Positions 18,261 through 48,118 of a DNA stretch of 64,000 nucleotides are shown here, one piece after another. The stretch is taken from positions 40,861 to 104,860 of the IMG/VR virus record IMGVR_UViG_3300024507_000282; one strand, given 5' to 3'. Numbering within the stretch: position 1 is the stretch's first letter; the number at the start of each line of letters is the position of its first letter. The translations under genes were made by a program, and so were the position numbers. Under the pieces are notes generated by a model. The model made no database searches. It had not been told where the DNA came from and was given only the letters and a program-made list of their open reading frames with translations. Source of the stretch: a virus (Duplodnaviria; Heunggongvirae; Uroviricota; Caudoviricetes).

Positions 18261-18584
18261 TTACGCTCCGTCATTAAACACATTAGAACTTCCGGTGATA
18301 GTTGTATATGTATCTCCGCCTTGTCCAAGGCCTGTATCTCCAATACGATGCACAGGCAAGTTTTCTGCAAACACAGTAGCAGATCCAGTAAGTGTTTGGC
18401 TAGTATGTCCGCAGGATTGTTCGCCAGGATCTCTAGTGGCTACTAGTTGTGCTAGGTTGTTTGTAAACACAGTACTGCATCCGGCAATGTGTGTGGTAGT
18501 ATAATCTACCGGTGGGCTAGGGGAGTGCAAAGGACATTTTCCTTCTCCCAAATCTGTTAATCTTGCTAGTGCTGGCATATTCAT
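18261..18584 (-). CDS. PAAR-repeat spike-tip protein (T4 gp5.4-like)
   Basis: 107 aa, Gly/Thr/His-rich with VHRIGD-type PAAR repeat and conserved Cys/His. Confidence 0.6.
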   Translation of the reverse strand: MNMPALARLTDLGEGKCPLHSPSPPVDYTTTHIAGCSTVFTNNLAQLVATRDPGEQSCGHTSQTLTGSATVFAENLPVHRIGDTGLGQGGDTYTTITGSSNVFNDGA

Positions 18585-18593
18585 ATTTATCGG

Positions 18594-18622
18594 TTGACAA
18601 CTACCAAAAATAATACTAAACT
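18594..18622 (+). promoter_or_regulatory. sigma70-like promoter (TTGACA-N17-TAAACT)
   Basis: consensus -35, 17-nt spacer, TAnnnT -10, 40 nt before iscA-like ATG. Confidence 0.4.
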
Positions 18623-18664
18623 ACGATAATTGTGCGATAAATATTACTACAACGGAGACACGAC

Positions 18665-18970
18665 ATGATTACAATAACAGAAACCGCTGAAAAAGAAATT
18701 CAAATGGTGCTGGATGAAAGCAAAGAAAAATACCTTAGAATTGCAATAGAAGGTGGAGGATGTTCGGGATTTAATTACGTGTTCGATTTTGCAAAAAACA
18801 AAGAAGAAGACGACTTTGAATTTGGTAGAATATTAATAGATTCAATGAGCATGAACTATTTGCAAGGAGCCAAAGTCGACTTTATCGATGACTTAATGGG
18901 CTCTAGTTTTAATATTGAAAATCCAAATGCACAAACAACTTGTGGATGTGGAAGTTCGTTTTCAGTTTAA
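18665..18970 (+). CDS. iscA: Fe-S cluster assembly protein IscA/HesB family
   Basis: C-terminal CGCGSSF signature, about 100 aa. Confidence 0.75.
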   Translation: MITITETAEKEIQMVLDESKEKYLRIAIEGGGCSGFNYVFDFAKNKEEDDFEFGRILIDSMSMNYLQGAKVDFIDDLMGSSFNIENPNAQTTCGCGSSFSV

Positions 18971-18979
18971 GGAGATTAA

Positions 18980-19369
18980 ATGGCTTATTCCGATAGAGTT
19001 ATAGATCACTACGAAAATCCTCGCAACGTAGGTAGTTTCCCTAAAGACGAGGAAGGCGTTGGCACAGGCATGGTGGGAGCACCTGCTTGCGGCGACGTGA
19101 TGAAGTTACAAATTAAAGTTAATAACGAGGGCATTATTGAGGATGCGAAATTCAAGACATACGGATGCGGAAGTGCTATTGCTAGTTCATCGTTGGTCAC
19201 CGAGTGGCTCAAAGGAAAAACGTTGGATCAAGCGGGAGAGATTAAGAACAGCGCGATTGCCGAAGAACTTGCACTTCCACCCGTTAAAATCCATTGTTCA
19301 ATTCTTGCGGAAGATGCTATCAAAGCCGCAGTAGCAGACTACAAGGCAAAAAATGATATCACTGTCTGA
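18980..19369 (+). CDS. iscU: Fe-S cluster scaffold IscU/NifU family
   Basis: [15 protein letters not shown] and [13 protein letters not shown] blocks; GGAG SD. Confidence 0.8.
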
Positions 19370-19673
19370 GAAAGCCGCAGAGCGAGTAAAGATTACACTA
19401 GACCGTAGGGGCAAAGGGCTAGGCATTCGATTAGGTGTTAAAACTACAGGCTGTAGTGGAATGGCTTATATGATTGAATTTGTTGACGAGCCCACAAAAG
19501 AAGATATGAGTTTTGTTAGTCACGGTGTACACGTATTTGTTGATCCAAAAAGTCTAGCATACCTGGACGGTGTACAAGTTGAATGGGTAAAGAAAGGTCT
19601 TAACGAAGGATTTGACTTTACCAATCCAAATGAACGTGACCGTTGTGGCTGTGGCGAGTCATTTCGAGTATAA
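19353..19673 (+). CDS. second IscA/HesB-family protein
   Basis: C-terminal CGCGESF signature. Confidence 0.7.
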
Positions 19674-23980: not shown

Positions 23981-24373
23981 ATGGCAGAGAATACAAAGAA
24001 GAAAATCAAAATCATAACCGCTCCGGATCGTATATACGATCAAAGTCAAACAATGCTAGTTATTACTCCTAGCGACACACTCAAAGACGCTGTACAGGAA
24101 TATGCTTTAGACTGTAGTGAACACTTAAACATATATCTGTACACAGGCGACGAAGACAACATAGCATGGTTACTCAGCGTAGCCAATTCCGTCGACACTA
24201 TTCTTATAGATATGGATAATAGTCCTGTAAGTATAAGCCAGTTCTTTGCTTACATTTTGAGTATTCCTACTACATACTATAGATGCACGAATATGCAAGC
24301 ACCTTGGGATTTAATAAATAAAAATCGTTTTTACGACTTTCCAAAATTAACAGAGGAAGATAATGAGGGATAA
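23981..24373 (+). CDS. hypothetical protein
   Basis: 130 aa ORF. Confidence 0.5.
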   Translation: MAENTKKKIKIITAPDRIYDQSQTMLVITPSDTLKDAVQEYALDCSEHLNIYLYTGDEDNIAWLLSVANSVDTILIDMDNSPVSISQFFAYILSIPTTYYRCTNMQAPWDLINKNRFYDFPKLTEEDNEG

Positions 24374-24596
24374 ACAACTACGTGGTAGTGGAGTTACTGT
24401 AAAAGACGGTGAACCCGTTGAAAGAGCTCTACGCCGTTTCAAAAAGAAAATACAGGATAGCGGATTATTGCAGGAACTAAGAGATCGCGAGTTCTATGAA
24501 AAGCCAACAACTGCTCGTAAGCGAGCAAAGTCTGCGGCTAAGAATCGTTGGCAAAAAGAACTGCGTAAACAACAACTACCTAAAAAAATGTATTAA
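24363..24596 (+). CDS. rpsU: ribosomal protein bS21 homologue
   Basis: ALRRFKKKIQDSGLLQELRDREFYEKPTTARKRAKSAA closely matches the bacterial S21 core. Confidence 0.8.
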   Translation: MRDKQLRGSGVTVKDGEPVERALRRFKKKIQDSGLLQELRDREFYEKPTTARKRAKSAAKNRWQKELRKQQLPKKMY

Positions 24597-24598
24597 AA

Positions 24599-24883
24599 AT
24601 GGACGAACAAAATAACGAAGTTATGGACATTCTGCAGGAAGAGTGTGCAGAAGTTATTCAAGCAGTAAGTAAAATTAGGCGTTTTGGCATAGACAATGCT
24701 AAACACGGAACAGAGCAGACCAATCGACAGCACCTAGAAGAAGAACTAGGGGATATGCTGGCTATGATTGATATACTAATGATCAACGAAGTAGTCAGTT
24801 GGGGCAAATTGCACGAAGCAAAAAGGGCAAAAGTCGAAAAGTTAAAAAAATGGTCTAAAATACCAAATTTAGATAAAATCTGA
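24599..24883 (+). CDS. mazG: MazG-like nucleotide pyrophosphohydrolase (small single-domain type)
   Basis: EExxE and EELGD metal-binding helices in a 94-aa four-helix protein. Confidence 0.6.
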   Translation: MDEQNNEVMDILQEECAEVIQAVSKIRRFGIDNAKHGTEQTNRQHLEEELGDMLAMIDILMINEVVSWGKLHEAKRAKVEKLKKWSKIPNLDKI

Positions 24884-24891
24884 TATAAATA
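24884..24891 (+). promoter_or_regulatory. T4-type late promoter box TATAAATA upstream of dnaK
   Basis: exact octamer 83 nt before dnaK ATG. Confidence 0.4.
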
Positions 24892-24924
24892 ATTTTGTAG
24901 AACGCCAATAGGGTTTTACGAAAC

Positions 24925-24973
24925 GGGCAGTTGCCCACAATTAAAATCTTGCTTAATTATAAGGAGAAATGTT
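24925..24973 (+). promoter_or_regulatory. conserved 5' leader (hairpin + AAAATCTTGCTTAATTATAAGGAGA) of dnaK
   Basis: GGGCAgttGCCC hairpin then a block near-identical to the hsp20 leader. Confidence 0.45.
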
Positions 24974-26839
24974 ATGAGCAAAGTCATCGGTATCGACTTG
25001 GGTACTACCAATTCATGCGTAGCAGTCATCGAGTCAGGAAATTCCAAAGTTATTGAAAACAGCGAAGGTGCAAGAACTACACCTAGTATTGTTGCCTATT
25101 CTACAGACGAAGTACTTGTAGGTGCTAGTGCTAAACGTCAAGCAGTAACAAATCCCAAAAACACAATCTATGCGGCCAAGCGTCTTATTGGACGTAAGTT
25201 CAAAGAACAGGCTGTACAAAAAGATATTGACCTAATGCCTTACGAAATCATGGAATCCAAGAATGGAGATGCATGGGTTCGCGCACAGGGTAAAGAATTA
25301 GCACCTCCGCAGATTAGTGCTGAAGTTCTGCGTAAGATGAAAAAGACAGCAGAGGATTATTTAGGTGAAAAAGTTACTCAAGCAGTTATCACAGTTCCCG
25401 CATACTTTAATGACAGCCAAAGACAGGCAACTAAGGATGCTGGAAAAATCGCAGGCTTGGAAGTATTGCGTATTATTAACGAGCCTACTGCGGCAGCTCT
25501 TGCTTATGGTGTTGATAAAAACGACAAAGCAGATCGCAAAGTTGCTGTTTATGACCTTGGTGGTGGTACTTTCGATGTATCGATCATTGAAATTGCCAAC
25601 GTGGATGGCGAAAAACAAATCGAAGTACTAAGCACTAACGGCGACACATTCTTAGGTGGTGAAGACTTTGACCAACGTATTATGGACTACTTGGTCGACG
25701 AGTTTAAGAAAGAGTCAGGCATGAACCTTAAGAAAGACATGTTGGCCTTACAACGTCTAAAAGAAGCCGCTGAAAAAGCCAAGATTGAGTTATCTAGCAG
25801 TGCCAGCACTGATGTTAACTTACCTTACATCACAGCAGACGCAAGTGGTCCTAAGCACATGAATGTTAAGATTACTCGTGCTAAGTTAGAAGCATTGGTA
25901 GAAGAACTAATCCAACGTAGTATCGAACCATGTAAGGTTGCTATGAAGGATGCAGGTGTTACTCCATCAGAAATTGACGAAGTTATTCTTGTTGGTGGGC
26001 AAACACGTATGCCCAAGGTACAAGAAGCAGTTGAAAAACTATTCGGTAAGGCTCCACGCAAAGACGTTAACCCAGACGAAGCAGTAGCAGTTGGTGCGGC
26101 TATTCAAGGTTCAGTACTAGCAGGTGATCGTACAGACGTTCTATTGTTAGACGTAACACCATTGTCACTAGGCATTGAAACTATGGGAGGTGTGTTTACT
26201 AAACTTGTACAAAAGAACACAACTATACCTACTAAGGCTAGCCAAGTGTTTAGCACAGCAGAAGATAATCAACCAGCAGTTGATATCAAAGTAGCACAAG
26301 GCGAGCGTGAACTATTCCAATACAACAAACTCCTGGGTGAGTTTAAGTTAGACGGTATTGCTCCAGCACGTCGTGGCACTCCACAGATTGAAGTTACATT
26401 TGACATCGATGCTAACGGCATTATGAAAATTAGTGCTAAAGATAAAAACACCGGCAAAGAAAATCAAATCACAATTAAGAGTGACAGTGGTCTAAGCAAA
26501 GAGCAGATCGAACAAATGGTTCGTGATGCAGAAGTTAATGCCGAATCAGATAAGAAGGCACGTGAACTTATCGATGCTAGGAACACAGCCGAGGCGTTGA
26601 TCAACAATGTTGAAAACGACATGAAAGAAACAACACTTTCAGACACAGATAAAACAAAGATCGAAGATGCTGTTAAAGCACTTCAAACAGAATTGACAGG
26701 TTCTGACAAAGACGCTATCGTACAAAAGACTAGCGAACTAGCAGTGGCCAGTCAAGCGATTGCACAGGCCAAACAGGACAAGCCATTTGAACCTGTTCAG
26801 GAAGATGCAATCAATGCCGAGTTTAAGGAAACAAACTAA
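24974..26839 (+). CDS. dnaK: molecular chaperone DnaK (Hsp70)
   Basis: [29 protein letters not shown] signatures; 621 aa. Confidence 0.9.
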
Positions 26840-26848
26840 ACTCGTTAT

Positions 26849-26905
26849 GTAGGGTGCCCGGGTGGGGCCCTACTAAAATTCTTGCTTAATTAAAGGAGAT
26901 ATAAA
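26849..26905 (+). promoter_or_regulatory. stable hairpin plus the same conserved leader, preceding hsp20
   Basis: GTAGGG..CCCTAC hairpin without T-tract, then AAAATTCTTGCTTAATTAAAGGAGA. Confidence 0.45.
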
Positions 26906-27352
26906 ATGACACAATTAACACGTTTTGACACAGCCGCTCTAAACAGAGCATTAATCGGTTTCGACAATCTATTCGATACTTTCGAAACACGCTTTGCACA
27001 TCAGATTTCGAACAACTATCCTCCATATAATATTGAAAAGTCTGGAGAAAACCAGTATAATATAGTTGTTGCTGTAGCAGGATTCGGTAAAGATGAAGTT
27101 GCAGTAGAAGTGGAAGGTGATCAATTAACTATTCGCGGCGAGAAGGCAATCAATGCTAACGAAGGCGAATACCAAGTTGAGTACTTACACAGAGGTCTTG
27201 CTTTCCGTGATTTCGAACGTAGATTTACTCTAGCAGAACACATGGAAATCAAGTCAGCAGAAATTAAGGATGGTGTGCTTACAATTCAAATCGAGCGCAT
27301 TGTTCCTGAAGCACTTCTGCCACGTAAGATTGAAGTGAAAGAAGTTAAGTAA
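26906..27352 (+). CDS. small heat-shock protein (Hsp20/IbpA family)
   Basis: alpha-crystallin domain; IbpA-like N-terminus. Confidence 0.85.
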   Translation: MTQLTRFDTAALNRALIGFDNLFDTFETRFAHQISNNYPPYNIEKSGENQYNIVVAVAGFGKDEVAVEVEGDQLTIRGEKAINANEGEYQVEYLHRGLAFRDFERRFTLAEHMEIKSAEIKDGVLTIQIERIVPEALLPRKIEVKEVK

Positions 27353-27354
27353 AA

Positions 27355-27378
27355 AATCGGGGGCTCCGGCCCCCACTA
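27355..27378. terminator. GC-rich hairpin (terminator-like)
   Basis: GGGGGCtccgGCCCCC after hsp20 stop; T-tract only on the opposite strand. Confidence 0.35.
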
Positions 27379-27407
27379 ATAAATACCATTAAGAATGGAG
27401 GGCCAAT

Positions 27408-27716
27408 ATGCCAACTGTAGACACCGAAATTAAAATTGACGAAAAGATTAAAATCGATATCACTGAACCTAAGCGTTACAAGGTATTGTTTTTAAATGAT
27501 AACAAAACTCCAATCGACTTTGTTATTGAATTACTAATGACTGTGTTTAAGCACTCCAGAGAAAATGCTGAACAGATTACATTAACTGTACACAATGAAG
27601 GTTCAGCAGTAGTAGGTGTTTATACCTACGAGATCGCCGAGCAGAAAGGTGTTGAGGCAACACACCTTGCACGTCAAGCAGGCTTCCCATTACAAATTAA
27701 AGTGGATTCCGAATGA
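27408..27716 (+). CDS. clpS: ClpS adaptor protein
   Basis: 102 aa; KVLFLNDNKTPIDFVIELLMTVF core typical of ClpS. Confidence 0.75.
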   Translation: MPTVDTEIKIDEKIKIDITEPKRYKVLFLNDNKTPIDFVIELLMTVFKHSRENAEQITLTVHNEGSAVVGVYTYEIAEQKGVEATHLARQAGFPLQIKVDSE

Positions 27717-28267
27717 GTCTAAAAGAACTTACACACGAGCAACATCGCAGAGCAGAAACAAGGCCTTTTGTTAAAGTCTTATTTTCAGGAAATGTAAATC
27801 CTAAACTATACGCAACATATCTAAAAAATCAACATCCAATGTATGAGATTTTAGAAGTCTGTGCTATGCCACATGGATTACTTTCCGGTCTACCAGAGAT
27901 ACGCAGAGCACCTGCAATTTTATCTGACTTCATAGAACTATGGGGCTCAGACAATCCTGAAGAACCAAAAATGTGTCCGGTAGTGGATGAATATATCAAA
28001 TATATTCTCAGCATCAAAGATGATCCTAAAAAGTTGATGGCACACATTTATGTACGTCACATGGGAGATTTATCAGGCGGTCAAATGATTGCTAAAAGAG
28101 TTCCAGGCAGTGGCAAATACTATCAGTTTGGAGACGAACCTGAAAAGATCAAAGAAGCAATTCGTGCAAAACTAGATGATAGTCTAGCAGATGAAGCAAG
28201 AGTATGTTTTGATTTTGCGGCAAAATTCTTTGATCAAATGATGGATATAGTTCCACACTATGAGTAA
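27713..28267 (+). CDS. heme oxygenase
   Basis: HemeO-family N-terminal helix; ATGA coupling to clpS and to the bilin reductase gene. Confidence 0.7.
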   Translation: MSLKELTHEQHRRAETRPFVKVLFSGNVNPKLYATYLKNQHPMYEILEVCAMPHGLLSGLPEIRRAPAILSDFIELWGSDNPEEPKMCPVVDEYIKYILSIKDDPKKLMAHIYVRHMGDLSGGQMIAKRVPGSGKYYQFGDEPEKIKEAIRAKLDDSLADEARVCFDFAAKFFDQMMDIVPHYE

Positions 28268-28940
28268 AGTATGGGACACGCTGATTGAAGTTCAGCATCT
28301 TTTAGAAAGCAGTTTTAATGAAACAGGAACAGAAATCTTTGAACCGGGCATGGATCGCTTTAATCAGCCTGGTTGGGTTAATCGTGTTTGGACCAGTGGG
28401 TCTTATCGCCGTGCTCACGTTGATGTTGTGGATGCTAGAGAAACCAAAGGACTCTGGATGATGCATTGTTGCATCTTCCCACACTTACACAATCCAGCAC
28501 CAATTTACGGCTTTGACGTTGTAGCAGGCAAGAATAAGATTACTGGCTGTTTTCATGATTACAGCAAAGCAGGAGATTCTAATCATCCTATGATGGAATG
28601 GTTTGCTGATTATGTTAAACGACTCGAATGGCGCAGAGAACGCCAACTACCAGAATGGGCTACCAACATATTCAGCCCTAGCATGGTAGCCGCAGGTAAT
28701 GTGCAGAGCGAAGAAGAACTAGCGCAGATTATAGAAATGGCTAAAGATACACTGGCACATTACTTAGAAACTGTAGCAGAAACTAATAATACTACTGAAA
28801 ATACCACAGAAGCGCAGAACTACTACGCAATCAATCAAAAATGTAACCCACATACTCCACGTGTAATGGCTAGTTTAGGCTTAGATGAAGAGGATGTTAG
28901 GGTATTCATACAGGAATGTTTGTTCCCAGAAATTCGCTAA
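28260..28940 (+). CDS. ferredoxin-dependent bilin reductase (PcyA/PebS/PcyX family)
   Basis: family-typical blocks WTSGSYRRAHVDVVD, MMHCCIFPH, GFDVV; sits downstream of heme oxygenase. Confidence 0.6.
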   Translation: MSKVWDTLIEVQHLLESSFNETGTEIFEPGMDRFNQPGWVNRVWTSGSYRRAHVDVVDARETKGLWMMHCCIFPHLHNPAPIYGFDVVAGKNKITGCFHDYSKAGDSNHPMMEWFADYVKRLEWRRERQLPEWATNIFSPSMVAAGNVQSEEELAQIIEMAKDTLAHYLETVAETNNTTENTTEAQNYYAINQKCNPHTPRVMASLGLDEEDVRVFIQECLFPEIR

Positions 28941-31472: not shown

Positions 31473-31548
31473 GCCCCTTTAGCTCATCTGGTAGAGCAAC
31501 TGATTTGTAATCAGTAGGTGGTCTGTTCGAGTCGGACAAGGGGCACCA
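31473..31548 (+). tRNA. tRNA-Thr (anticodon TGT), CCA encoded
   Basis: manual cloverleaf: acceptor GCCCCTT/AAGGGGC, D GCTC/GAGC, AC stem ACTGA/TCAGT loop TTTGTAA, T-arm GTCTG-TTCGAGT-CGGAC. Confidence 0.8.
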
Positions 31549-32374: not shown

Positions 32375-32914
32375 ATGAAAAAACTATTATCACTTATAGC
32401 ATTATTGCCTATGATTGTATCGGCAGCACCTTTAGGTGATTACACCTTTAAGAGTCCTGCCTTTAACGGCGTAGGTTACAGCAGTCATGTATTAACCATT
32501 GAGAATCAAGAGCGCACACGTCAGAAAGAACGTGCAGATAAACTACAGGCTGAAATTGACAAAGCAGCCGCAGATAAGAAAAACACCAACCTTGCTAAGT
32601 TTGTTAGTAACTTAGAATCACGTATCTATGCACAGATTAGTCAGAACGTAGCAACCGCTATGTTTGCCAATAACAACTGTACAGCAAGTAGCAACACAAA
32701 CTGTTCTGGCAACATTGACTTCCAGGGCAACTATATTAGTTGGGGCAGAGTTAGTAGTGCTAACGATGCTAACTGTTCAACAGCCTACGGATACTGCATT
32801 ATGTTAAAGATTGCAGATCCTACAGCCACTAACCCAAGTACAGCATCATGCACAGACACTGGAATGAGTTGTGTGTATGTTCCATTAAGTTCATTCCAAA
32901 TGCCGGGGAACTAA
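32375..32914 (+). CDS. secreted CsgF-like protein (curli accessory)
   Basis: signal peptide; mature N-terminus DYTFKSPAFNGVGYS resembles CsgF TMTFQFRNPNFGGNP; C-terminus Cys-rich. Confidence 0.45.
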   Translation: MKKLLSLIALLPMIVSAAPLGDYTFKSPAFNGVGYSSHVLTIENQERTRQKERADKLQAEIDKAAADKKNTNLAKFVSNLESRIYAQISQNVATAMFANNNCTASSNTNCSGNIDFQGNYISWGRVSSANDANCSTAYGYCIMLKIADPTATNPSTASCTDTGMSCVYVPLSSFQMPGN

Positions 32915-32917
32915 GAC

Positions 32918-34087
32918 ATGAAAAAGACAATACTATCCCTAGCAGTTTTAACTATGCTTTCAGGTTGTGCTGTTATGCAGACAACTGGAGTACTAGACAA
33001 GAGTCCTGAAGTTACAGGGCAAATGACTAATGTTAAGAAAGAATTTGATACAATACCTAGTCCAATCGCTGGAAGACCACTAAGCGTGGCCGTTTATAGT
33101 TTTACTGATAAAACAGGTCAACGTAGACCGCAGGCAAACATTGCCAGTTTATCAACAGCAGTGACACAGGGTGCAGAAACATTCTTAATACAGGCATTAC
33201 AAAATGTAGGACGCGGTCAATGGTTCGACGTTGTAGAACGTGTGGGCATTGATAACCTAACTAAAGAACGTTTAATTATTAGGCAAATGCGCGAAGCATA
33301 TGAAGGTAAAGATGCTAAACCATTGCTACCAATGCAATTCGCTGGAATTATTGTAGAAGGCGGAATAGTAGGCTACGATCAAAGCACTACCAGCGGTGGT
33401 GTAGGTCAACGTATATTTGGCATAGGCAAAAATACACAGTGGAGCACTGATACAGTAACAGTAAGTTTACGAGCAGTTAGCGTAAACACTGGTAAGGTAT
33501 TAGCCACAGTGACAGTACAAAAGACTATCTTAAGTTCAGCAGACAGCGTATCTGCATTAAAATTCTTTGACGCAGGCACTAAGGCATTTGAAGCAGAAGC
33601 AGGTTTAACTATCAATGAACCTGGCACTTACGCTACAAAGGCAACTATTGAAATGGCAGTCGTAGAGTTAATTAAGGAAGGACAACGTAAAGGTGTATGG
33701 GAGTTTAAACCAGAATCCGCACCAGCGGCCAAGGCACCTGTACCAGCACCAGCGGCCCAGCCGGTAATTAGCTCTGAGATTAAAGAAGAAGTTAAAGTAG
33801 AGGAGAAGAAAGATGTCGTGGTTCAATCACAAACCAAATCCGAAACCGAAACCAAGGCCGTACCCAGTACCGCCGCAAAAGAACTAGAGAAGTTACCTAC
33901 AGAAGCAATTCTAAAGGATGCTCAGTTTATATACAAGGAGCCAAACGAAAAGAGTCAAAGGACTTGGCAGTTTAAGCCAAATACACGAGTATTCATAACC
34001 GGGAGCGAAGGTGATTGGGTACAAGTGCAGGACGTAGAGAAGCGTAAAGGGTTTGTTAAAAAAGAAGTAGTTAACAAACAAAAATAA
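32918..34087 (+). CDS. csgG: CsgG-family secretion-channel lipoprotein (curli CsgG / holdfast HfaB family)
   Basis: lipobox LSGC; long colinear similarity to E. coli CsgG (AVYSFTDKTGQ, ERVGIDNLTKERLIIRQ, IIVEGGIVGYDQSTTSGGVGQRIFGIG, VSLRAVSVNTGKVLATV). Confidence 0.8.
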   Translation: MKKTILSLAVLTMLSGCAVMQTTGVLDKSPEVTGQMTNVKKEFDTIPSPIAGRPLSVAVYSFTDKTGQRRPQANIASLSTAVTQGAETFLIQALQNVGRGQWFDVVERVGIDNLTKERLIIRQMREAYEGKDAKPLLPMQFAGIIVEGGIVGYDQSTTSGGVGQRIFGIGKNTQWSTDTVTVSLRAVSVNTGKVLATVTVQKTILSSADSVSALKFFDAGTKAFEAEAGLTINEPGTYATKATIEMAVVELIKEGQRKGVWEFKPESAPAAKAPVPAPAAQPVISSEIKEEVKVEEKKDVVVQSQTKSETETKAVPSTAAKELEKLPTEAILKDAQFIYKEPNEKSQRTWQFKPNTRVFITGSEGDWVQVQDVEKRKGFVKKEVVNKQK

Positions 34088-34170
34088 GAAAGAGAGGTAG
34101 CACTTTAAATTTTTTAATGGTCTTAGACCAAGGAGCGAGTTAGGGAAGATAACCTAATTCTGTAAAAACG

Positions 34171-35145
34171 ATGCATAAGAGAATCACAGGCGCTGGTGGG
34201 TTGTCGAGAAAATTACTCACAATTCTGGTGTTGTCTGCAATGACAACATTGGGTTATGCGGCTGACAATAGCATTTACATTGATCAGTCCGGCGATAATA
34301 GTACTATTACTATGACTCAAGACGGAGCAGGAAACAAAGTAAAGGGTATATTATTAAATGGCACAGCAGGTGGAACAACTGATCCTGCTAAACTAACTGG
34401 TGCCGCACAGACTATCAACATTGAGCAAACAGGAGCAACTAACGTATTGGCGTTAGGTGTTAACTCAACACAAGGTGGTACTGTACAAGGTTATGCTAAT
34501 ATTGGTGTGAATTTAAATTACCAAGTAAGTGGTGGTGGAAACACAGGTTACATTAATATTAACAATAATGGTACAGGCACAGCCAGTGGTAACGTTGTTA
34601 GTTTTGTTCAAAGTGGCGGTAGTGCAACTACAACACTTAACATGACTGGTACAAGTAACCAATTAACTGTTGGAACTAGTGGTGGTGCTAACAACACATT
34701 TACAGGTACAATCAACGCTGATGAAACTGTAGCAACTGTTAGTCAAACAGGTGGCGGCGGCAACGCAACTACACTTAACATGACCGGAAACAAAGGTCAA
34801 GTTAGTCTAACAACTGTTGGTGCAACTAACACTACATCTGTAACACAGAGTGCATACGGTGTAACTGGTGCTCAAGCAATTATCAACATCACAGGTTCTG
34901 GTAATACTACAGACGTAACACAAACTGGTGCGTACGATCACTATGCTAGTATTACTGTAACAGGCGGTAGCAATGGCATTACACTTGCACAAACAGGTGG
35001 ATCTGCTACTGGACACAGCACAACGTTATCTGTAACAGGTAGTACTAATACTATTGGTATTACACAACAAGGATCAGTTAGCAATCTAACTAATCTTGCT
35101 ATATCAGGAAGTGGCAACACTTACACTATTTTACAGAAAAACTAA
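34171..35145 (+). CDS. secreted curlin-repeat protein (CsgA/CsgB/HfaA-like)
   Basis: signal peptide; repeated Q-x-G-x-x-N units (DQSGDNSTITMTQDGAGNKV, IEQTGATNV, VSQTGGGGNATT, VTQTGAYDH, ITQQGSVSN). Confidence 0.55.
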   Translation: MHKRITGAGGLSRKLLTILVLSAMTTLGYAADNSIYIDQSGDNSTITMTQDGAGNKVKGILLNGTAGGTTDPAKLTGAAQTINIEQTGATNVLALGVNSTQGGTVQGYANIGVNLNYQVSGGGNTGYININNNGTGTASGNVVSFVQSGGSATTTLNMTGTSNQLTVGTSGGANNTFTGTINADETVATVSQTGGGGNATTLNMTGNKGQVSLTTVGATNTTSVTQSAYGVTGAQAIINITGSGNTTDVTQTGAYDHYASITVTGGSNGITLAQTGGSATGHSTTLSVTGSTNTIGITQQGSVSNLTNLAISGSGNTYTILQKN

Positions 35146-35154
35146 GAGGGTTCC

Positions 35155-44105: not shown

Positions 44106-44393
44106 ATGTCACAAGCACACGTTCAGAAGTTCGAAGCATCTATGTTTGAGTATTGCTCGGACCATGCCGAAAGGGCATACAAGTTATTTGAAGATGGAGA
44201 AGTAGATGTTGGATTGGAAAGATTAGGCCATTTAGCAGATATACTCCAAATGTTAAAAAGTTCTAAAAGTTCAAACGGAACTATTAACATTAATACATTT
44301 GCACAAGAAGTAAAAGCATTAGATGAAATAGATAAAGATGCCGTATACACACACTTCCAAGAGAACGGCTTTGGACAATATATACCGGAGTGA
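44106..44393 (+). CDS. hypothetical protein
   Basis: 95 aa ORF downstream of promoter. Confidence 0.5.
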   Translation: MSQAHVQKFEASMFEYCSDHAERAYKLFEDGEVDVGLERLGHLADILQMLKSSKSSNGTININTFAQEVKALDEIDKDAVYTHFQENGFGQYIPE

Positions 44394-44395
44394 AA

Positions 44396-44953
44396 ATGAA
44401 AAAAATTGATGAGTTCAATGCGGAAGATAGAATTGATCTTAGATTACTGGAAAATTCTACTTTTTATTTGAATGGAGAGATAGATGAAGATACAGTAGGC
44501 GAAGCCATCAAATGGATTCTCTATGAAAATTTACAAGGCGAAGGTAGAACTTTGACCTTGTATATTAACAGCACGGGCGGAGATTTGTATCAGGCTCTAG
44601 CGTTAATTGATGTAATGCGTAGCAGTCCACATATTGTAAGAACTATTGGAATTGGTGCTGTCATGAGTGCGGCATTTTTAATTTTTGCCTGCGGTGATAA
44701 AAAGCATCGTTATGCGGCTAGTAATACTAGTTTTATGTGTCACCAATTTACATCCGGAATGGATGCTAAGTATCACGACCTAAAAGCAGAAATGAAAGAA
44801 ACCGAATTGTTAAATGAAAAGATGATAACAATTCTAACCGAAACAACAGGCTTGGTTAAAAGTAGAGTTAAAGCAAAACTACTACCAGCCAGCGATGTTT
44901 ACCTAACTGCACAAGAAGTGGTTGACTTTGGGGTAGCGGATCATATAGTATAG
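44396..44953 (+). CDS. clpP: ClpP-family serine peptidase (S14)
   Basis: ClpP-like blocks INSTGGDLYQALALIDVM, GAVMSAAF (Ser), FMCHQ (His); GGAG SD. Confidence 0.65.
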   Translation: MKKIDEFNAEDRIDLRLLENSTFYLNGEIDEDTVGEAIKWILYENLQGEGRTLTLYINSTGGDLYQALALIDVMRSSPHIVRTIGIGAVMSAAFLIFACGDKKHRYAASNTSFMCHQFTSGMDAKYHDLKAEMKETELLNEKMITILTETTGLVKSRVKAKLLPASDVYLTAQEVVDFGVADHIV

Positions 44954-45928: not shown

Positions 45929-46086
45929 GTTATAAGTGTCCTGTCTGTGAAAGTGAGAAACAATATAGCAACAAGTACGATGCGTATTTTTGCGAGTTGT
46001 GTAATAAGTGGCTAGAAGAACCGTGCAAGGATCCAGAGTGTCAATTCTGTACTACACGGCCAGAAAAGCCCAGCCAAGTTGGCTAA
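45919..46086 (+). CDS. small Cys-rich zinc-ribbon-like protein (55 aa)
   Basis: overlaps upstream stop; CPVC..CELC..CKDPECQFC pattern. Confidence 0.35.
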   Translation: MDISYKCPVCESEKQYSNKYDAYFCELCNKWLEEPCKDPECQFCTTRPEKPSQVG

Positions 46087-46118
46087 AAGTAATAAACATA
46101 ATAACAAGGAGAAACATT

Positions 46119-47177: not shown

Positions 47178-47756
47178 ATGCAGTACAATGAATTTTTAGA
47201 TTGGGTAGATATTGACAAGTTTTCAGATGCTTGTAATAACATCTGTCATCAGACAGTATTAAATGAATCCACAAATCGAATGATGAAAGAAAAATTCATT
47301 ATTGCGGCAATGCAATTATCTAATCATAAAAAGAACATCGAGTGGACTGACGTTCGCGATTACGATATAAAATTTACCGATTGGACCAATGGCGACGTAG
47401 AAGTTAAAACTGGCAACGAACCTTTGTTCTACGCAAAGTCAGGAACTCCTAAAAAGACAATCAGTCTTAAATTAAAAAATGTTTACGAAAGTAAGAATCA
47501 AAGAACTACACTAGACAAAGTTTTTAATCATTTAATGATAGTCCAAATTAAAGGAACATTCGCTGTTGCCTTTGTAGATTACGCAACAGTTAAGGCTAAT
47601 CTAAAACAATTAACAGACGGCTTCTTAGTCAAACTAACACACGACCAAATAAATATTGTGTACAAAAAAGATATGAGAAATGAACCGACATCTTGGACAA
47701 TTGACTTAGATCCAAAACCTTGGATATTTGGCACATTAGCAAAGGCAGGCGTTTAA
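47178..47756 (+). CDS. hypothetical protein
   Basis: 192 aa ORF. Confidence 0.5.
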   Translation: MQYNEFLDWVDIDKFSDACNNICHQTVLNESTNRMMKEKFIIAAMQLSNHKKNIEWTDVRDYDIKFTDWTNGDVEVKTGNEPLFYAKSGTPKKTISLKLKNVYESKNQRTTLDKVFNHLMIVQIKGTFAVAFVDYATVKANLKQLTDGFLVKLTHDQINIVYKKDMRNEPTSWTIDLDPKPWIFGTLAKAGV

Positions 47757-47761
47757 AGAAT

Positions 47762-48118
47762 TGTTGTAATCCCTTCAAAGCGAAGGACTTCTGGACGCGG
47801 GTTCGACTCCCGCCAGGTCCACCATAAGGACATAAATTTACTTTGGTATTCATTGTAAATTTACTTTGGTATTGTGTTTTTATGATGGGCCTGCCATGGT
47901 TTCGACAGGGGTAGATAGTAGAGACGGCAACACGGTAGGCGATGACCGTAAATCAAGCAAAACTAGTAAATGCAAACGCATCTACATTTGAGTACTTCAC
48001 TGTTGAAGGCTTCACAGCCGACAATGGTCTAGTAGCAGCCTAAGAAACTGCAACTCCGGGGTAGGACTTACCTTGTAACCCAAACAACCAAAGGGCCTTC
48101 GGGCCCTTTTTTATTTTA
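47762..48118 (+). ncRNA. ssrA: two-piece (circularly permuted) tmRNA gene: acceptor piece first, coding piece second
   Basis: 47791-47824 T-arm GCGGG-TTCGACT-CCCGC + CAGGTCC-A-CCA; 47887 GGGCCTG pairs with it giving G3:U70; UUUCGACAGGGG tmRNA-like 5' element; tag ORF 47972-48043 ANASTFEYFTVEGFTADNGLVAA; terminator at end. Confidence 0.6.
48092..48117 (+). terminator. intrinsic terminator
   Basis: GGGCCttcgGGCCC + T6. Confidence 0.75.

What the first reader, a model, noticed from the sequence alone, without database searches (positions are those of the whole stretch)
24363..28940. Proteostasis and pigment auxiliary block: bS21, MazG, DnaK, Hsp20, ClpS, heme oxygenase, bilin reductase
Seven tightly coupled genes (ATGA/ATGG overlaps) encode a ribosomal protein S21 homologue, a small MazG pyrophosphohydrolase, full-length DnaK, an IbpA-like sHsp, ClpS, a heme oxygenase and a PcyA/PebS-family ferredoxin-dependent bilin reductase. 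S21, MazG, HO and bilin reductases are familiar auxiliary genes of marine cyanophages and pelagiphages. A full DnaK-sHsp-ClpS set next to them is unusual. A ClpP-like peptidase is encoded separately (44396-44953). A HO plus bilin-reductase pair in a genome whose other signals (two-piece tmRNA, curli/holdfast-like genes) point away from cyanobacteria recalls the non-cyanobacterial PcyX lineage.
Basis: partly seen in the sequence, partly recalled or inferred. Interest (0 to 1): 0.6.

Follow-up and report, generated by a model that had tools for sequence, protein, structure and literature searches.

The report
Jumbo-phage chaperone and bilin gene block
A widespread, uncultured giant phage of probable betaproteobacterial hosts carries a conserved set of protein-folding, protein-degradation and haem-breakdown genes, and its two chaperone genes sit behind RNA leaders that look like bacterial heat-sensing "RNA thermometers", an arrangement I found no report of for viruses or for dnaK.

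Summary
All seven ORFs exist at the stated coordinates and pass curated HMM cut-offs: bS21, MazG, full-length DnaK, Hsp20, ClpS, heme oxygenase and a bilin reductase. The reductase is PcyX-type (E=1.6e-69 to PDB 5OWG; Asp55/His69/Asp86 invariant). DnaK–Hsp20–ClpS–HO–PcyX is syntenic in 74 of 79 related viral loci and under purifying selection (dN/dS 0.10–0.20). The phage is a roughly 330–380 kb T4-like jumbo phage. Its two-piece tmRNA is betaproteobacterial, and its DnaK is one old capture from Burkholderiales, so the marine pelagiphage/cyanophage framing is wrong. "Tightly coupled" holds only for clpS–HO–pcyX. dnaK and hsp20 each follow a structured leader: a hairpin with covariation, then U(U/C)GCU facing the Shine-Dalgarno, the hallmark of short ROSE-like RNA thermometers. 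A model built from hsp20 leaders hits only these two genes in 1.4 Mb of related phage DNA. It also hits the hsp20 leaders of cyanophages, pelagiphages and a rhizobiophage. Rfam ROSE_3 hits are sub-threshold, and thermosensing is untested. HO–PcyX, phage DnaK and phage ClpS each have precedents. The conserved combination and a ROSE-type leader on dnaK appear new.

The parts
23981..24373 (+). 130-aa ORF of unknown function, overlapping the S21 start by 11 nt
   Evidence: No Pfam or PHROG hit. Weakly conserved (about 31-39% identity in most loci, 75-83% in L027 and L031) at the same position in most related loci.
24363..24596 (+). Ribosomal protein bS21 homologue
   Evidence: PF01165 5.1e-21; TIGR00030 equivalog 72.5 bits, above the 28.95 cut-off; phrog_21469; pooled dN/dS 0.20.
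24599..24883 (+). Small all-alpha MazG-type NTP pyrophosphohydrolase
   Evidence: PF03819 29.3 bits, above 22; phrog_4856 9.4e-22; the EExxE...ExxD acidic motifs are nearly invariant in 42 sequences; dN/dS 0.13.
24884..24891 (+). TATAAATA box, a T4/cyanophage late-promoter-like site about 90 nt upstream of dnaK
   Evidence: An ATAAATA box is present upstream of dnaK in 55 of 55 distinct relatives, and in at most 4 of about 55 upstream regions for any other block gene. Function is inferred.
24897..24973 (+). dnaK 5' leader: hairpins 24897-24919 and 24925-24936, anti-SD box UCUUGCUU 24947-24954, SD AAGGAGA 24961-24967
   Evidence: Sequence. Model R1, built only from hsp20 leaders, hits 24921-24977 at 28.1 bits, E=5.6e-6. 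Rfam ROSE_3 gives 19.6 bits, E=0.6, a full-length alignment below the gathering score of 43. Conserved in all relatives.
24974..26839 (+). Full-length DnaK (Hsp70), captured once from a Burkholderiales-type bacterium
   Evidence: The phage clade is monophyletic in 100/100 bootstraps and sits inside Burkholderiales. Catalytic, linker and J-domain-contact residues are invariant. dN/dS 0.11.
26849..26905 (+). hsp20 5' leader: hairpin I 26849-26873, anti-SD UCUUGCUU 26880-26887, SD AAGGAGA 26893-26899 (short ROSE-like architecture)
   Evidence: probability that the SD is paired 0.95-0.73 from 5 to 45 C, against 0.29-0.41 in control leaders. Covariation in hairpin I: 7 of 9 pairs compensatory, 0/500 shuffles reach the observed score. 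R1 scores 68.9 bits.
26906..27352 (+). IbpA-like small heat-shock protein (Hsp20) with a C-terminal I-x-I/V motif
   Evidence: PF00011 7.6e-19; phrog_432 2.7e-37; IbpA/IbpB are the best NCBIfam models but below cut-off; I142 invariant and position 144 always I or V.
27358..27375 (.). GC-rich hairpin (GGGGGC-UCCG-GCCCCC) between hsp20 and clpS
   Evidence: A GC hairpin is present in nearly all 53 distinct hsp20-clpS spacers, some followed by a T-run. Its role, attenuator or mRNA stabiliser, is inferred.
27408..27716 (+). ClpS, the N-degron adaptor of ClpAP
   Evidence: PF02617 1e-29. Best solved relative is A. tumefaciens ClpS2, 1.3e-19. N30, D31, T34, P35 and H62 are invariant. The window's pocket reads NDNKTPI, whereas 47 of 57 relatives have Asp at position 32 and 54 of 57 have Met at position 36.
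27713..28267 (+). Canonical (HO-1 type) heme oxygenase, start overlapping the clpS stop (ATGA)
   Evidence: PF01126 3.9e-23. Proximal His11 and the GDLxGGQ distal helix are invariant or nearly so. The 4-nt overlap with clpS is found in 66 of 75 loci.
28260..28940 (+). PcyX-type ferredoxin-dependent bilin reductase (predicted biliverdin to phycoerythrobilin)
   Evidence: E=1.6e-69 to PcyX 5OWG against 3e-11 to PcyA. 50% identical to the Pelagibacter phage Mosig protein. D55, H69 and D86 are invariant in 59 sequences. dN/dS 0.097.
44390..44953 (+). ClpP-family serine peptidase; role uncertain (ClpP partner or head-maturation protease)
   Evidence: PF00574 3.6e-33; triad aligned; below the cut-offs of both ClpP and ClpP-related head-maturation NCBIfam models; best PHROGs are head-maturation proteases.
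47671..48113 (+). Two-piece tmRNA of the betaproteobacterial type (context: host clue and trans-translation link to Clp)
   Evidence: RF01850 129.4 bits (gathering 84) and RF04321 138.4 bits. ARAGORN reads the tag ANASTFEYFTVEGFTADNGLVAA.

Best explanation
The window comes from a roughly 330-380 kb T4-like jumbo phage belonging to a common uncultured lineage whose hosts are most likely Burkholderiales (Betaproteobacteria). The finding is a conserved host-takeover region made of three units.

(1) S21 and MazG are loosely linked upstream genes for translation and nucleotide or alarmone control.

(2) A chaperone unit is probably transcribed from a late-type NATAAATA promoter. It holds dnaK, captured once from a Burkholderiales host, and hsp20, an old gene of aquatic T4-like phages. 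Each gene has its own short ROSE-like leader: a 5' stabilising hairpin, then a hairpin in which U(U/C)GCU imperfectly pairs with the Shine-Dalgarno. The hsp20 leader is ancestral, because it is present in cyanophages, pelagiphages and a rhizobiophage. A copy was placed in front of the captured dnaK. I infer that both chaperones are translationally gated by SD masking that loosens with temperature. Their job would be folding and holding the burst of late virion proteins, with a phage class-B J-protein encoded elsewhere in at least some members.

(3) clpS-hemO-pcyX is a translationally coupled trio. ClpS re-targets host ClpAP towards N-degron substrates and away from SsrA-tagged ones. HO opens haem to biliverdin IX-alpha and releases iron. 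PcyX reduces biliverdin to phycoerythrobilin using host ferredoxin.

Shown: gene identities, residue conservation, synteny, purifying selection, origin of DnaK, hairpin covariation, specificity of the leader. Inferred: late transcription, thermosensing, clients of the chaperones, the physiological purpose of ClpS and of HO/PcyX.
For: Family identities. Synteny in 74 of 79 viral loci. Purifying selection on all seven genes. Functional residues invariant. Phage nature and size: near-unidirectional genes, 25 tRNAs, rIIA/rIIB, contigs up to 330-381 kb. Host clade: beta-type tmRNA; nearest cellular DnaKs all Burkholderiales at 72-77%; phage DnaK monophyletic 100/100 and nested there. Promoter-like box only before dnaK, 55/55. 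Leader evidence: hairpin I covariation, 73 double-change cells vs 16.6 shuffled, 0/500. The hsp20-trained model finds the dnaK leader at E=5.6e-6 and nothing else in 64 kb. All 149 hits in 1.37 Mb of related loci are at dnaK or hsp20 leaders. There is only one chance-level hit in 943 kb of cellular dnaK loci. The SD is paired with probability about 0.8 in hsp20 leaders against 0.3-0.4 in controls. The box variants UUGCU, UCGCU and UUACU all keep the four SD pairs. ROSE_3 is the only Rfam family that repeatedly hits these leaders, in the window's dnaK and in S-SKS1, C48C1 and S-PRM1 hsp20. The same leader precedes hsp20 in 8 of 8 sampled phages. The ROSE definition comes from PMC3669281 and PMC4166951. 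A J-protein lies on three of the same contigs. clpS/HO and HO/pcyX overlaps are conserved. HO-PcyX biochemistry is known from PMC11480375.
Against: All ROSE_3 scores (19.6-27.9 bits) are below the gathering score of 43, and the window's own hsp20 leader gave no ROSE hit at E<=10. The SD hairpin is sequence-invariant, so covariation cannot support it. Predicted SD pairing falls only modestly with temperature: 0.80 to 0.64 (lineage median) and 0.95 to 0.73 (window) between 5 and 45 C. For most dnaK leaders ViennaRNA prefers pairing of UUGCU with codons 2-3, and the median probability that the SD is paired is only 0.2. The TATAAATA count in the window equals chance expectation, and no gp55-like late sigma factor was looked for. 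The J-protein was shown on the same contig only for one subclade, not for the window's own genome. No GrpE, ClpA, ClpX or ferredoxin was found in the window, and only by low-sensitivity checks. Host assignment rests on two gene-level signals, not on CRISPR spacers or cultivation. The set of cellular DnaKs was pre-filtered by query-derived peptide patterns.
Confidence: 0.6

Rival explanations
1. The conserved leaders are not thermosensors. Hairpin I is a 5'-terminal stabiliser against RNase E, and the invariant UCUUGCUU...AAGGAGA stretch is a strong translation-initiation region or the operator of a phage translational repressor (for example RegA-like). Alternatively it is a site favoured by ribosomes that carry the phage bS21.
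For: The SD hairpin shows no covariation because both sides are invariant. In-silico melting is shallow. Hairpin I is capped by hyperstable GNRA or UUCG loops that are swapped between loci. In cyanophage Bellamy, hsp20 lies directly downstream of a RegA-like gene. The G-to-A change in the box occurs in both leaders of the same subclade, as expected if they share a trans-acting reader or undergo gene conversion. Rfam ROSE scores are sub-threshold.
Against: The motif is exactly the ROSE signature U(U/C)GCU facing AGGA with a bulged purine. It sits in front of a small heat-shock gene, where ROSE elements are found. ROSE_3 is the only Rfam family that repeatedly matches. It is absent from the other AGGAG-led genes in the window.
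Confidence: 0.3
2. The block is mainly an iron and Fe-S economy module. HO strips iron from host haem, and PcyX removes biliverdin so that HO keeps turning over. The freed iron feeds the phage's own IscA-IscU-IscA scaffold, its di-iron RNR and its desaturase. The phage DnaK acts as the Hsp70 that releases clusters from IscU through its LPPVK motif.
For: The window encodes IscA, IscU (NifU_N 2e-52) and IscA at 18665-19673, class I RNR large and small subunits, glutaredoxin and a fatty-acid desaturase. IscU carries LPPVK. No HscA or HscB is present in the window. An iron-supply role for phage HO/PcyX has been discussed in the literature.
Against: The Hsp70 is a DnaK equivalog and scores below the HscA cut-offs. 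The Fe-S genes are about 5 kb away and not in the same unit. DnaK is paired with Hsp20 and shares its heat-shock-type leader, which points to general proteostasis. Two relatives keep ClpS-HO-PcyX but lack DnaK and Hsp20 (L078, L079).
Confidence: 0.15
3. The tight clpS-hemO-pcyX coupling reflects a shared role in tetrapyrrole control. Phage ClpS would divert host ClpAP and so alter turnover of glutamyl-tRNA reductase (HemA), the gatekeeper of the C5 pathway. It would then act as a functional analogue of the viral ALA synthase found beside hemO-pcyX in other phages.
For: The ATGA overlap of clpS and hemO is found in 66 of 75 loci. ClpS-HO-PcyX persists where DnaK and Hsp20 are lost. Other aquatic phages carry a three-gene hemO-pcyX-alaS cassette. 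From my own background knowledge, not tested here: HemA/GluTR is a ClpAP/Lon substrate in enterobacteria and a ClpS1 client in plastids.
Against: No direct evidence. ClpS also occurs in jumbo phages that lack HO/PcyX, and next to hsp20 in phage Phosso, which links it to proteostasis instead. Pelagiphage Mosig has HO-PcyX without ClpS.
Confidence: 0.1
4. The block is not phage-borne: it is a bacterial heat-shock island or a mis-assembled chimera of host and phage DNA.
For: DnaK is 72-77% identical to cellular DnaKs. Several 'phage' database records that contain DnaK are evidently host sequence.
Against: The same gene order recurs on 74 independent viral contigs, some 130-400 kb long. The exact DnaK is seen on 38 contigs. 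Composition is flat at about 40% GC across the window. The flanking genes are phage-type, including rIIA/B, tRNA arrays and a tail-fibre-like protein. Phage DnaKs form their own deep clade. Cellular dnaK loci have grpE/dnaJ neighbours and lack the leader.
Confidence: 0.02

Closest known systems
Phage hemO-pcyX cassette (PcyX_EBK42635, PDB 5OWG; Pelagibacter phage Mosig; 'pcyX-like' genes of large freshwater phages TP6_1, BML_S_1, CB_1)
   Same: An adjacent, overlapping heme oxygenase and FDBR pair. The FDBR matches PcyX at 1.6e-69 with Asp55, His69 and Asp86 present. It is 50% identical to the Mosig protein.
   Different: Here the pair is translationally fused to clpS upstream and embedded in a chaperone operon. 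The host is probably a betaproteobacterium rather than SAR11. No alaS is nearby. Activity is predicted, not measured, and the one freshwater enzyme tested so far (CB_2) turned out to be a PcyA.
Short ROSE-like RNA thermometers of Pseudomonas ibpA (Rfam ROSE_3, RF02523)
   Same: A two-hairpin 5'UTR of about 60 nt. U(U/C)GCU imperfectly pairs with the SD in the 3' hairpin and the AUG is left free. It lies in front of an IbpA-like sHSP gene. In several loci hairpin I resembles the ROSE_3 consensus GGAUGCC...GGGUCC.
   Different: It is encoded by phages, scores below the Rfam gathering threshold, is probably driven by a phage late-type promoter rather than sigma-32, and also occurs in front of dnaK, although ROSE elements are described as always associated with small heat-shock genes. 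One subclade has UUACU. Thermosensing is untested, and the hosts probably live at cool ambient temperatures.
Moraphages (freshwater jumbo phages encoding DnaK, DnaJ, Hsp20; Arch Virol 2025, PMC12619734)
   Same: Large aquatic phages that captured a host DnaK and also carry J-proteins and Hsp20. The DnaK phylogeny points to the host clade.
   Different: This is an independent capture: Flavobacteriaceae there, Burkholderiales here. That paper's text mentions no ClpS, heme oxygenase or tmRNA. In moraphages DnaK is present in only 8 of 25 genomes, whereas here it is nearly universal and syntenic.
ClpS genes of jumbo phages (PA5oct-like Pseudomonas phages, Agrobacterium Atu_ph07, Sinorhizobium Phosso, Vibrio and Salicola jumbo phages)
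   Same: A stand-alone ClpS adaptor gene in genomes over 280 kb. In Phosso it lies one gene away from hsp20.
   Different: Only 35-44% identical. Those phages lack the HO/PcyX fusion partner, and none has been shown to redirect ClpAP.
T4-like pelagimyophages and OM43 phage Melnitz (Kyanoviridae-related)
   Same: They share the auxiliary repertoire: bS21, two-piece tmRNA, csgF/csgG, Hsp20, and HO-PcyX in Mosig. TATAAATA boxes precede hsp20 in Mosig and HTVC008M.
   Different: Their genomes are about 140-150 kb against about 330-380 kb here. Their tmRNA is alpha-type, here beta-type. They have no DnaK or ClpS. Conserved proteins are only about 30-60% identical to any cultured phage.

Membership tests
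PcyX (four-electron FDBR making phycoerythrobilin) | Sequence groups with PcyX rather than PcyA or PebS | tested here: met
   phmmer 237 bits, E=1.6e-69 to 5OWG PcyX, against 46 bits, 3e-11 to PcyA. The nearest annotated phage protein is the Mosig PcyX-type reductase at 50%.
PcyX (four-electron FDBR making phycoerythrobilin) | PcyX-specific Asp55 plus the His69/Asp86 catalytic pair | tested here: met
   D55, H69 and D86 are present in the window protein and invariant in 59 lineage sequences. Asp55 is named as PcyX-specific, and absent from the PcyA-like CB_2 enzyme, in PMC11480375. That His69 and Asp86 form the catalytic pair is from my own knowledge.
PcyX (four-electron FDBR making phycoerythrobilin) | Product is PEB, not PCB, from biliverdin IX-alpha | not testable with these tools
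   Needs a recombinant enzyme assay with ferredoxin.
PcyX (four-electron FDBR making phycoerythrobilin) | Two-gene cassette with hemO immediately upstream | tested here: met
   HO and pcyX overlap by 8 nt in the window and by 8-14 nt in most loci.
DnaK (bacterial Hsp70) | Full NBD, interdomain linker, SBD-beta and lid; scores above curated equivalog cut-offs | tested here: met
   NF001413 973 bits (cut-off 648) and TIGR02350 909 bits (cut-off 822.55); HscA models are below cut-off. It aligns to E. coli DnaK 1-604. The phosphate-1 loop, the VLLLD linker and R166/N169 are invariant.
DnaK (bacterial Hsp70) | Works with a J-protein and a nucleotide-exchange factor | tested here: inconclusive
   A class-B J-protein lies on three contigs that also carry the block. 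None was found in the window itself by a low-sensitivity scan. GrpE was not found: my regex found no GrpE even in the cellular loci, so no phage search was made.
ROSE-like RNA thermometer (short two-hairpin type, Rfam RF02523) | U(U/C)GCU motif imperfectly paired with the SD in the 3'-proximal hairpin | tested here: met
   UCUUGCUU...AAGGAGA lies before both hsp20 and dnaK. The predicted fold is ((((.(((.....))))))) with a bulged G. 98% of cells are paired. UUGCU and UCGCU variants both occur, and UUACU occurs in one subclade. Definition.
ROSE-like RNA thermometer (short two-hairpin type, Rfam RF02523) | Located in the 5'UTR of a small heat-shock gene | tested here: met
   It lies directly upstream of hsp20 in this lineage and in 8 of 8 other phages sampled. 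It also lies upstream of dnaK, which is outside the family's described range.
ROSE-like RNA thermometer (short two-hairpin type, Rfam RF02523) | Additional 5' hairpin(s) conserved in structure | tested here: met
   Hairpin I: 7 of 9 pairs show compensatory changes, covariation score 0.290 vs 0.130 shuffled (0/500), and slid controls fall to 47-66% paired.
ROSE-like RNA thermometer (short two-hairpin type, Rfam RF02523) | Reaches the Rfam gathering score | tested here: not met
   ROSE_3 gives 19.6 bits (window dnaK leader), 27.9 (S-SKS1), 26.8 (C48C1) and 20.1 (S-PRM1) against a gathering score of 43. The window's hsp20 leader gets no hit at E<=10. I therefore call it ROSE-like, not a curated member.
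ROSE-like RNA thermometer (short two-hairpin type, Rfam RF02523) | Translation rises as temperature melts the SD hairpin | not testable with these tools
   In silico only: the probability that the SD is paired falls from 0.95 to 0.73 (window) and from 0.80 to 0.64 (lineage median) between 5 and 45 C. Nearest-neighbour models do not capture the non-canonical pairs of ROSE.
ClpS (N-degron adaptor of ClpAP) | ClpS fold and N-degron pocket residues (E. coli N34, D35, D36, T38, M40, H66) | tested here: inconclusive
   PF02617 1e-29. N, D, T, P and H are invariant, but the window protein has Asn for D36 and Ile for the M40 gatekeeper; 47 of 57 relatives have Asp and 54 of 57 have Met. It is below the NCBIfam equivalog cut-offs. 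The residue roles are from my own knowledge.
ClpS (N-degron adaptor of ClpAP) | A ClpA partner is available (host or phage) | not tested
   No ClpA-like gene was seen in the window (the AAA protein at 48193-49272 is not Clp-like). The rest of the genome and the host were not examined.
ClpP (ATP-dependent Clp protease proteolytic subunit) | Scores as ClpP rather than as a ClpP-related phage head-maturation protease | tested here: inconclusive
   PF00574 is passed and the triad is present. The ClpP NCBIfam subfamily models give about 100 bits against cut-offs of 228-249, and the head-maturation model gives 62.5 against 120. The top PHROGs are head-maturation proteases.
Canonical heme oxygenase (HO-1/HmuO type) | Proximal His ligand and distal-helix Gly-rich motif | tested here: met
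   His11 aligns with the proximal His of HO-2 and HO-1. GDLSGGQ is present; G118, D119, G122 and G123 are invariant in 58 sequences, and only position 121 varies freely.

The most novel reading that the evidence does not exclude
Aquatic phages carry their own temperature-gated heat-shock regulon. A ROSE-type RNA thermometer would be an ancestral part of the phage hsp20 gene, a core gene of cyanophages and pelagiphages whose function is still unknown. In this jumbo-phage lineage it has been duplicated onto a captured dnaK, so the virus rather than the host would set chaperone output according to water temperature. That would be the first ROSE-type element on an Hsp70 gene and the first thermosensor family shared across major marine and freshwater phage groups.
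Probability: 0.35. Interest if true: 0.75.

Novelty: new variant of a known kind. Interest (0 to 1): 0.6.

Why it matters
Each gene family here is a known phage auxiliary gene. What is new is the fixed combination and how it appears to be regulated.

First, the block defines a very common uncultured jumbo-phage lineage: 379 PcyX relatives in IMG/VR, contigs up to about 400 kb. The lineage has a clear host-clade signal and keeps a PcyX-type enzyme. The 2024 paper describes PcyX as known only from marine viruses and reports that the one freshwater cassette enzyme it tested made PCB, not PEB.

Second, the ROSE-like leaders give a direct, cheap experimental route (reporter fusions, structure probing) into why hsp20 is conserved in aquatic T4-like phages. 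They also allow a test of whether phage reproduction responds to temperature at the level of translation.

Third, one regulatory leader sitting on both a vertically inherited gene and a horizontally captured gene is a clean example of how phages domesticate host genes.

Fourth, the conserved clpS-hemO-pcyX fusion offers a testable link between proteolysis control and tetrapyrrole or iron metabolism in infected cells.

Tried and rejected
- **Megablast:** the block gave no match against 50,697 phage records, so there is no close cultured relative.
- **Scan for partners in the window:** single-seed phmmer for J-domain, plant-type and ISC-type ferredoxins found nothing. Sensitivity was low, so this is not proof of absence.
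- **First dN/dS script:** it timed out and was redone on the family alignments.
- **First dnaK leader folds:** fixed-length slices cut through hairpin I and gave an artefactual structure. I refolded from the predicted transcript start.
- **Leader inherited with the host dnaK:** rejected. There is only one chance-level hit in 943 kb of cellular dnaK loci, and it lacks UUGCU.
- **UUGCU...AGGAG as a general leader of this phage:** rejected. The exact motif occurs once in the window, plus the dnaK variant; other matches are at chance level, and the model search finds nothing else.
- **Window ClpS pocket variant (N32, I36) as a lineage-wide specificity change:** rejected. It is confined to 3 of 57 sequences.
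- **Moraphages as the same lineage:** rejected. Their DnaK comes from Flavobacteriaceae.
- **AAA protein at 48193-49272, next to the tmRNA, as ClpX/ClpA:** rejected. It gives only weak generic AAA hits.
- **GrpE:** my regex found no GrpE even in the cellular loci, so no phage search for it was made.

Full report
**1. Observation**

Each scores above Pfam's gathering cut-off:
- Ribosomal_S21, 24363-24596
- MazG, 24599-24883
- HSP70 over profile positions 1-596 of 599, 24974-26839
- HSP20, 26906-27352
- ClpS, 27408-27716
- Heme_oxygenase, 27713-28267
- Fe_bilin_red, 28260-28940

PHROGs gives the same names. NCBIfam scores the Hsp70 above both DnaK equivalog cut-offs (973 vs 648; 909 vs 822.55) and below the HscA cut-offs. 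The protein aligns end to end with E. coli DnaK residues 1-604, so the substrate-binding domain and lid are present.

One correction concerns the "tight coupling". Overlaps exist only at the unknown ORF/S21 junction, at clpS/HO (ATGA) and at HO/pcyX. MazG to dnaK, dnaK to hsp20 and hsp20 to clpS are separated by 90, 66 and 55 nt of structured non-coding sequence.

**2. What genome this is**

The window has flat composition at about 40% GC, and almost all genes are on one strand. It holds about 25 tRNAs, an amber-suppressor-type tRNA and a permuted tmRNA. It also carries rIIA and rIIB, class I RNR, glutaredoxin, an IscA-IscU-IscA set, cell-wall hydrolases, csgF/csgG with curlin-repeat neighbours, a CHASE2 cyclase, a ClpP-family peptidase and a desaturase.

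No cultured phage is close at the DNA level. NrdA is at most 60% identical to large Xanthomonas, Ralstonia and Stenotrophomonas myoviruses. rIIA is 30% identical to the 385 kb Xanthomonas jumbo phage XacN1.

The identical DnaK is recorded on 38 contigs, the longest 330 kb, and close relatives lie on contigs of 360-380 kb. IMG/VR holds 379 relatives of the reductase, the best 80 at 77-91% identity, on contigs up to 400 kb. This is therefore a common uncultured jumbo-phage lineage.

**3. Host clade**

The tmRNA matches Rfam's betaproteobacterial two-piece family (RF01850, 129 bits, gathering 84), not the alpha or cyanobacterial ones.

The nearest cellular DnaKs in 185,579 species genomes are all Burkholderiales at 72-77% identity: Paracidovorax, Variovorax, Limnohabitans, Polynucleobacter, Rhodoferax and Hydrogenophaga. 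In a bootstrapped NJ tree the 56 distinct phage DnaKs are monophyletic in 100 of 100 replicates. They nest inside that radiation, next to an uncultured betaproteobacterial MAG (79/100) and then Polynucleobacter. Divergence within the clade (0.335) is nearly as deep as phage to bacterium (0.357). This indicates one old capture followed by vertical inheritance.

The caveat is that the cellular set was pre-filtered by query-derived peptide patterns. A freshwater habitat is my inference from the donor genera. I did not decode the sample identifiers.

**4. Conservation of the block**

tblastn of the window's proteins against the 79 related loci shows DnaK-Hsp20-ClpS-HO-PcyX in the same order in 74 of them, usually preceded by S21 and MazG and followed by csgF/csgG. 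L078 and L079 keep S21, MazG, ClpS, HO and PcyX but lack DnaK and Hsp20. L050 and L061 show only HO-PcyX, and L067 is cut off just upstream of HO.

Identities to the window range from about 38% (HO) to 97% (MazG in L031). Pooled dN/dS is 0.20 (S21), 0.13 (MazG), 0.11 (DnaK), 0.20 (Hsp20), 0.20 (ClpS), 0.20 (HO) and 0.10 (PcyX).

Functional residues are invariant:
- PcyX Asp55, His69 and Asp86
- the HO proximal His and the GDLxGGQ motif
- the MazG EExxE...ExxD motifs
- the Hsp20 C-terminal I-x-I/V
- the DnaK phosphate loop, the VLLLD linker and the R166/N169 J-contact positions

The window's ClpS has Asn and Ile where E. coli has D36 and the M40 gatekeeper, but that variant is limited to 3 of 57 sequences.

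**5. The pigment genes**

The reductase matches the solved PcyX (5OWG) at 1.6e-69 and PcyA at about 1e-11. Its closest annotated relative, at 50%, is in Pelagibacter phage Mosig, where it also overlaps a heme oxygenase.

The literature describes hemO-pcyX as a phage cassette from marine metagenomes, and "pcyX-like" genes in large freshwater phages. It names Asp55 as the PcyX-specific residue. A freshwater cassette enzyme lacking Asp55 proved to be a PcyA. Because Asp55 is invariant here, I predict PEB synthesis, which is untested.

The physiological purpose in a non-photosynthetic host remains open in the literature (iron release, photoreceptor chromophore) and in my analysis.

**6. Precedents for the proteostasis genes**

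Real phage DnaKs in the annotated phage collection are confined to huge phages: the Lak megaphages and LR7565xx genomes of 480-735 kb. ClpS occurs in jumbo phages such as PA5oct, Atu_ph07 and Phosso. "Moraphages", freshwater jumbo phages of Bacteroidota, encode DnaK, DnaJ and Hsp20, with DnaK captured from Flavobacteriaceae. In Phosso, hsp20 and clpS are one gene apart.

So each element has a precedent. The fixed DnaK-Hsp20-ClpS-HO-PcyX arrangement and the independent Burkholderiales capture do not. Searches of the paper library found no description of it.

A class-B J-protein (HPD motif, G/F linker, no zinc finger) lies on three contigs that also carry the block. At least part of the lineage therefore supplies its own DnaK co-chaperone. 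I could not verify this for the window's own genome.

The ClpP-family ORF has an intact triad. It clears neither the ClpP nor the head-maturation-protease NCBIfam cut-off, and it resembles PHROG head-maturation proteases most. Its partnership with ClpS is unproven.

**7. The unexpected part: the leaders**

Upstream of dnaK, all 55 distinct relatives have three features:
- an ATAAATA box (TATAAATA in the window at 24884-24891)
- one or two GC hairpins
- a nearly invariant UCUUGCUU-loop-AAGGAGA stretch, then 5-8 nt and the AUG

The box is present for at most 4 of the roughly 55 distinct upstream regions of any other block gene. The window's hsp20 has the same hairpin plus UCUUGCUUAAUUAAAGGAGA.

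U(U/C)GCU imperfectly paired with the SD in the 3'-proximal hairpin is the defining mark of ROSE-like RNA thermometers. The short Pseudomonas ibpA type has two hairpins in a UTR of about 60 nt with the AUG free. ROSE elements are described as always associated with small heat-shock genes.

**8. Tests of the leader**

(a) Folding. The hsp20 leader folds as ((((.(((.....))))))) with a bulged G. The probability that the SD is paired is 0.95 at 5 C and 0.73 at 45 C in the window. The lineage median is 0.80 falling to 0.64. Nine other AGGAG-led genes of the window give 0.41 to 0.29.

(b) Covariation. On 53 distinct hsp20 leaders, hairpin I has compensatory changes in 7 of 9 pairs (73 double-change cells vs 16.6 in shuffles, 0/500; slid controls 47-66% paired). 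The SD hairpin is 98% paired but invariant, so it is uninformative.

(c) Specificity. A covariance model built only from hsp20 leaders finds the window's dnaK leader at 28.1 bits (E=5.6e-6) and nothing else in 64 kb with filters off (next best E=0.22). In 1.37 Mb of related loci all 149 hits lie at dnaK or hsp20 leaders, apart from an inverted duplicate in L018. In 943 kb of cellular dnaK loci there is one chance-level hit that lacks UUGCU.

(d) Rfam. ROSE_3 aligns over its full length to the window's dnaK leader (19.6 bits, E=0.6) and to the hsp20 leaders of S-SKS1 (27.9 bits), C48C1 (26.8) and S-PRM1 (20.1). All are below the gathering score of 43.

(e) Box variants. UUGCU, UCGCU and UUACU all keep the four SD pairs. 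U to C turns a U-G pair into C-G, and G to A falls on the bulge. The alternative pairing of the box with dnaK codons 2-3, which ViennaRNA prefers for most dnaK leaders, is perfect only in the UUGCU/AGC subset.

(f) Breadth. The same architecture precedes hsp20 in Mosig, HTVC008M, HTVC115P, Bellamy, S-SKS1, S-PRM1, C48C1 and Phosso, that is 8 of 8 sampled.

I conclude that a divergent ROSE_3-type leader is an old attribute of the phage hsp20 gene, and that this lineage placed a copy in front of its captured dnaK. The UUACU variant occurs in both leaders of the same subclade, so the two copies evolve in concert. No paper in the library links cyanophage hsp20 to RNA thermometers. Thermosensing itself is not shown.

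**9. Operon picture**

The most economical reading is as follows. A late-type promoter drives dnaK and hsp20, each with its own translational gate. A GC hairpin after hsp20, followed by a T-run in some loci, acts as a partial terminator or stabiliser. The translationally coupled clpS-hemO-pcyX follows. About half of the hsp20 leaders also carry a TATAAT-like box. All of this is inferred from sequence.

**10. Mechanism and rivals**

I commit, at 0.6, to a late-expressed proteostasis-plus-haem-catabolism module as set out in the best explanation. The rivals are:
- the leaders are stabiliser or operator elements rather than thermosensors (0.3)
- the block is an iron and Fe-S economy module in which DnaK serves the phage IscU, which carries LPPVK (0.15)
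- clpS is coupled to hemO-pcyX because it modulates ClpAP control of tetrapyrrole synthesis (0.1)
- the block is host contamination (0.02)

**11. Verdict**

The gene families are known auxiliary genes. The fixed combination in a widespread betaproteobacterial-type jumbo-phage lineage, and above all the ROSE-like leaders shared by hsp20 and a captured dnaK, make this a new variant of known kinds with a directly testable regulatory hypothesis.

Noticed in passing
window 59022-63937 (plus 31473-31548 and 53825-53898): A dense array of about 24 tRNA genes, a lone tRNA-Thr, and a tRNA with anticodon CTA (amber-suppressor type, labelled 'Pyl' by ARAGORN; 38.4 bits to the Rfam tRNA model). This could indicate stop-codon read-through or recoding in late genes.
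   Followed up: no
window 47671-48134: A phage-encoded two-piece tmRNA of the betaproteobacterial type, with predicted tag ANASTFEYFTVEGFTADNGLVAA. Together with ClpS, which blocks ClpAP degradation of SsrA-tagged proteins in E. coli (my own knowledge), and a ClpP-like gene, it suggests phage control of trans-translation.
   Followed up: partly
window 32375-38651: csgF and csgG are followed by two proteins with borderline Curlin_rpt hits (20.4 and 21.5 bits against a 20.7 cut-off) and a FecR-domain protein. Pelagimyophages and Melnitz are reported to lack csgA/csgB, so this lineage might carry curlin-like subunits.
   Followed up: no
window 18665-19673: An IscA-IscU-IscA gene set. IscU carries the Hsp70-recognition motif LPPVK, and no HscA or HscB is nearby.
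   Followed up: partly
window 39636-41393: A CHASE2 sensor domain fused to an adenylate/guanylate cyclase, encoded by the phage. It is a possible second-messenger manipulation or anti-defence gene.
   Followed up: no
window 46008-46319: A histone H1-like Hc1 homologue (PF07432, 1.6e-20), a nucleoid-condensing protein best known from Chlamydia (my own knowledge).
   Followed up: no
window 27408-27716, residues 32 and 36: The window's ClpS and two close relatives have Asn and Ile at the positions of E. coli D36 and the M40 specificity gatekeeper, while 47 and 54 of 57 relatives have Asp and Met respectively. This may be a sublineage shift in N-degron specificity.
   Followed up: partly
L003-L081 (related loci), whole block: Mosaic identities. 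L003 has the closest PcyX (91%) but distant ClpS (55%) and DnaK (78%), while L031 has ClpS at 96% and DnaK at 91% but PcyX at 83%. This suggests recombination within the block between sublineages.
   Followed up: no
L018 about 18266-18855 (minus strand): A second, inverted copy of the hsp20 leader and ClpS region on one contig, either an assembly artefact or a real inverted duplication.
   Followed up: no
L166 (Sinorhizobium phage Phosso, record positions 396892-398338): hsp20, thymidine kinase and clpS are adjacent in an unrelated 469 kb jumbo phage, and its hsp20 also has the ROSE-like leader (31.3 bits). The Hsp20-ClpS linkage therefore recurs.
   Followed up: partly
window 8345, 24884, 54357, 58247 (+ strand): All four plus-strand TATAAATA copies lie in gaps after ORF ends, three of them within 30-90 nt upstream of an ORF start (one before a virion-structural-like protein). 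The total count equals chance expectation.
   Followed up: partly
window 18261-18584 (minus strand) and 16597-18258 (minus strand): A PAAR-motif protein (borderline, 23.7 bits against 27) next to a 553-aa ORF with no family hit, both on the minority strand. They could be a tail-spike tip or a toxin-delivery module.
   Followed up: no
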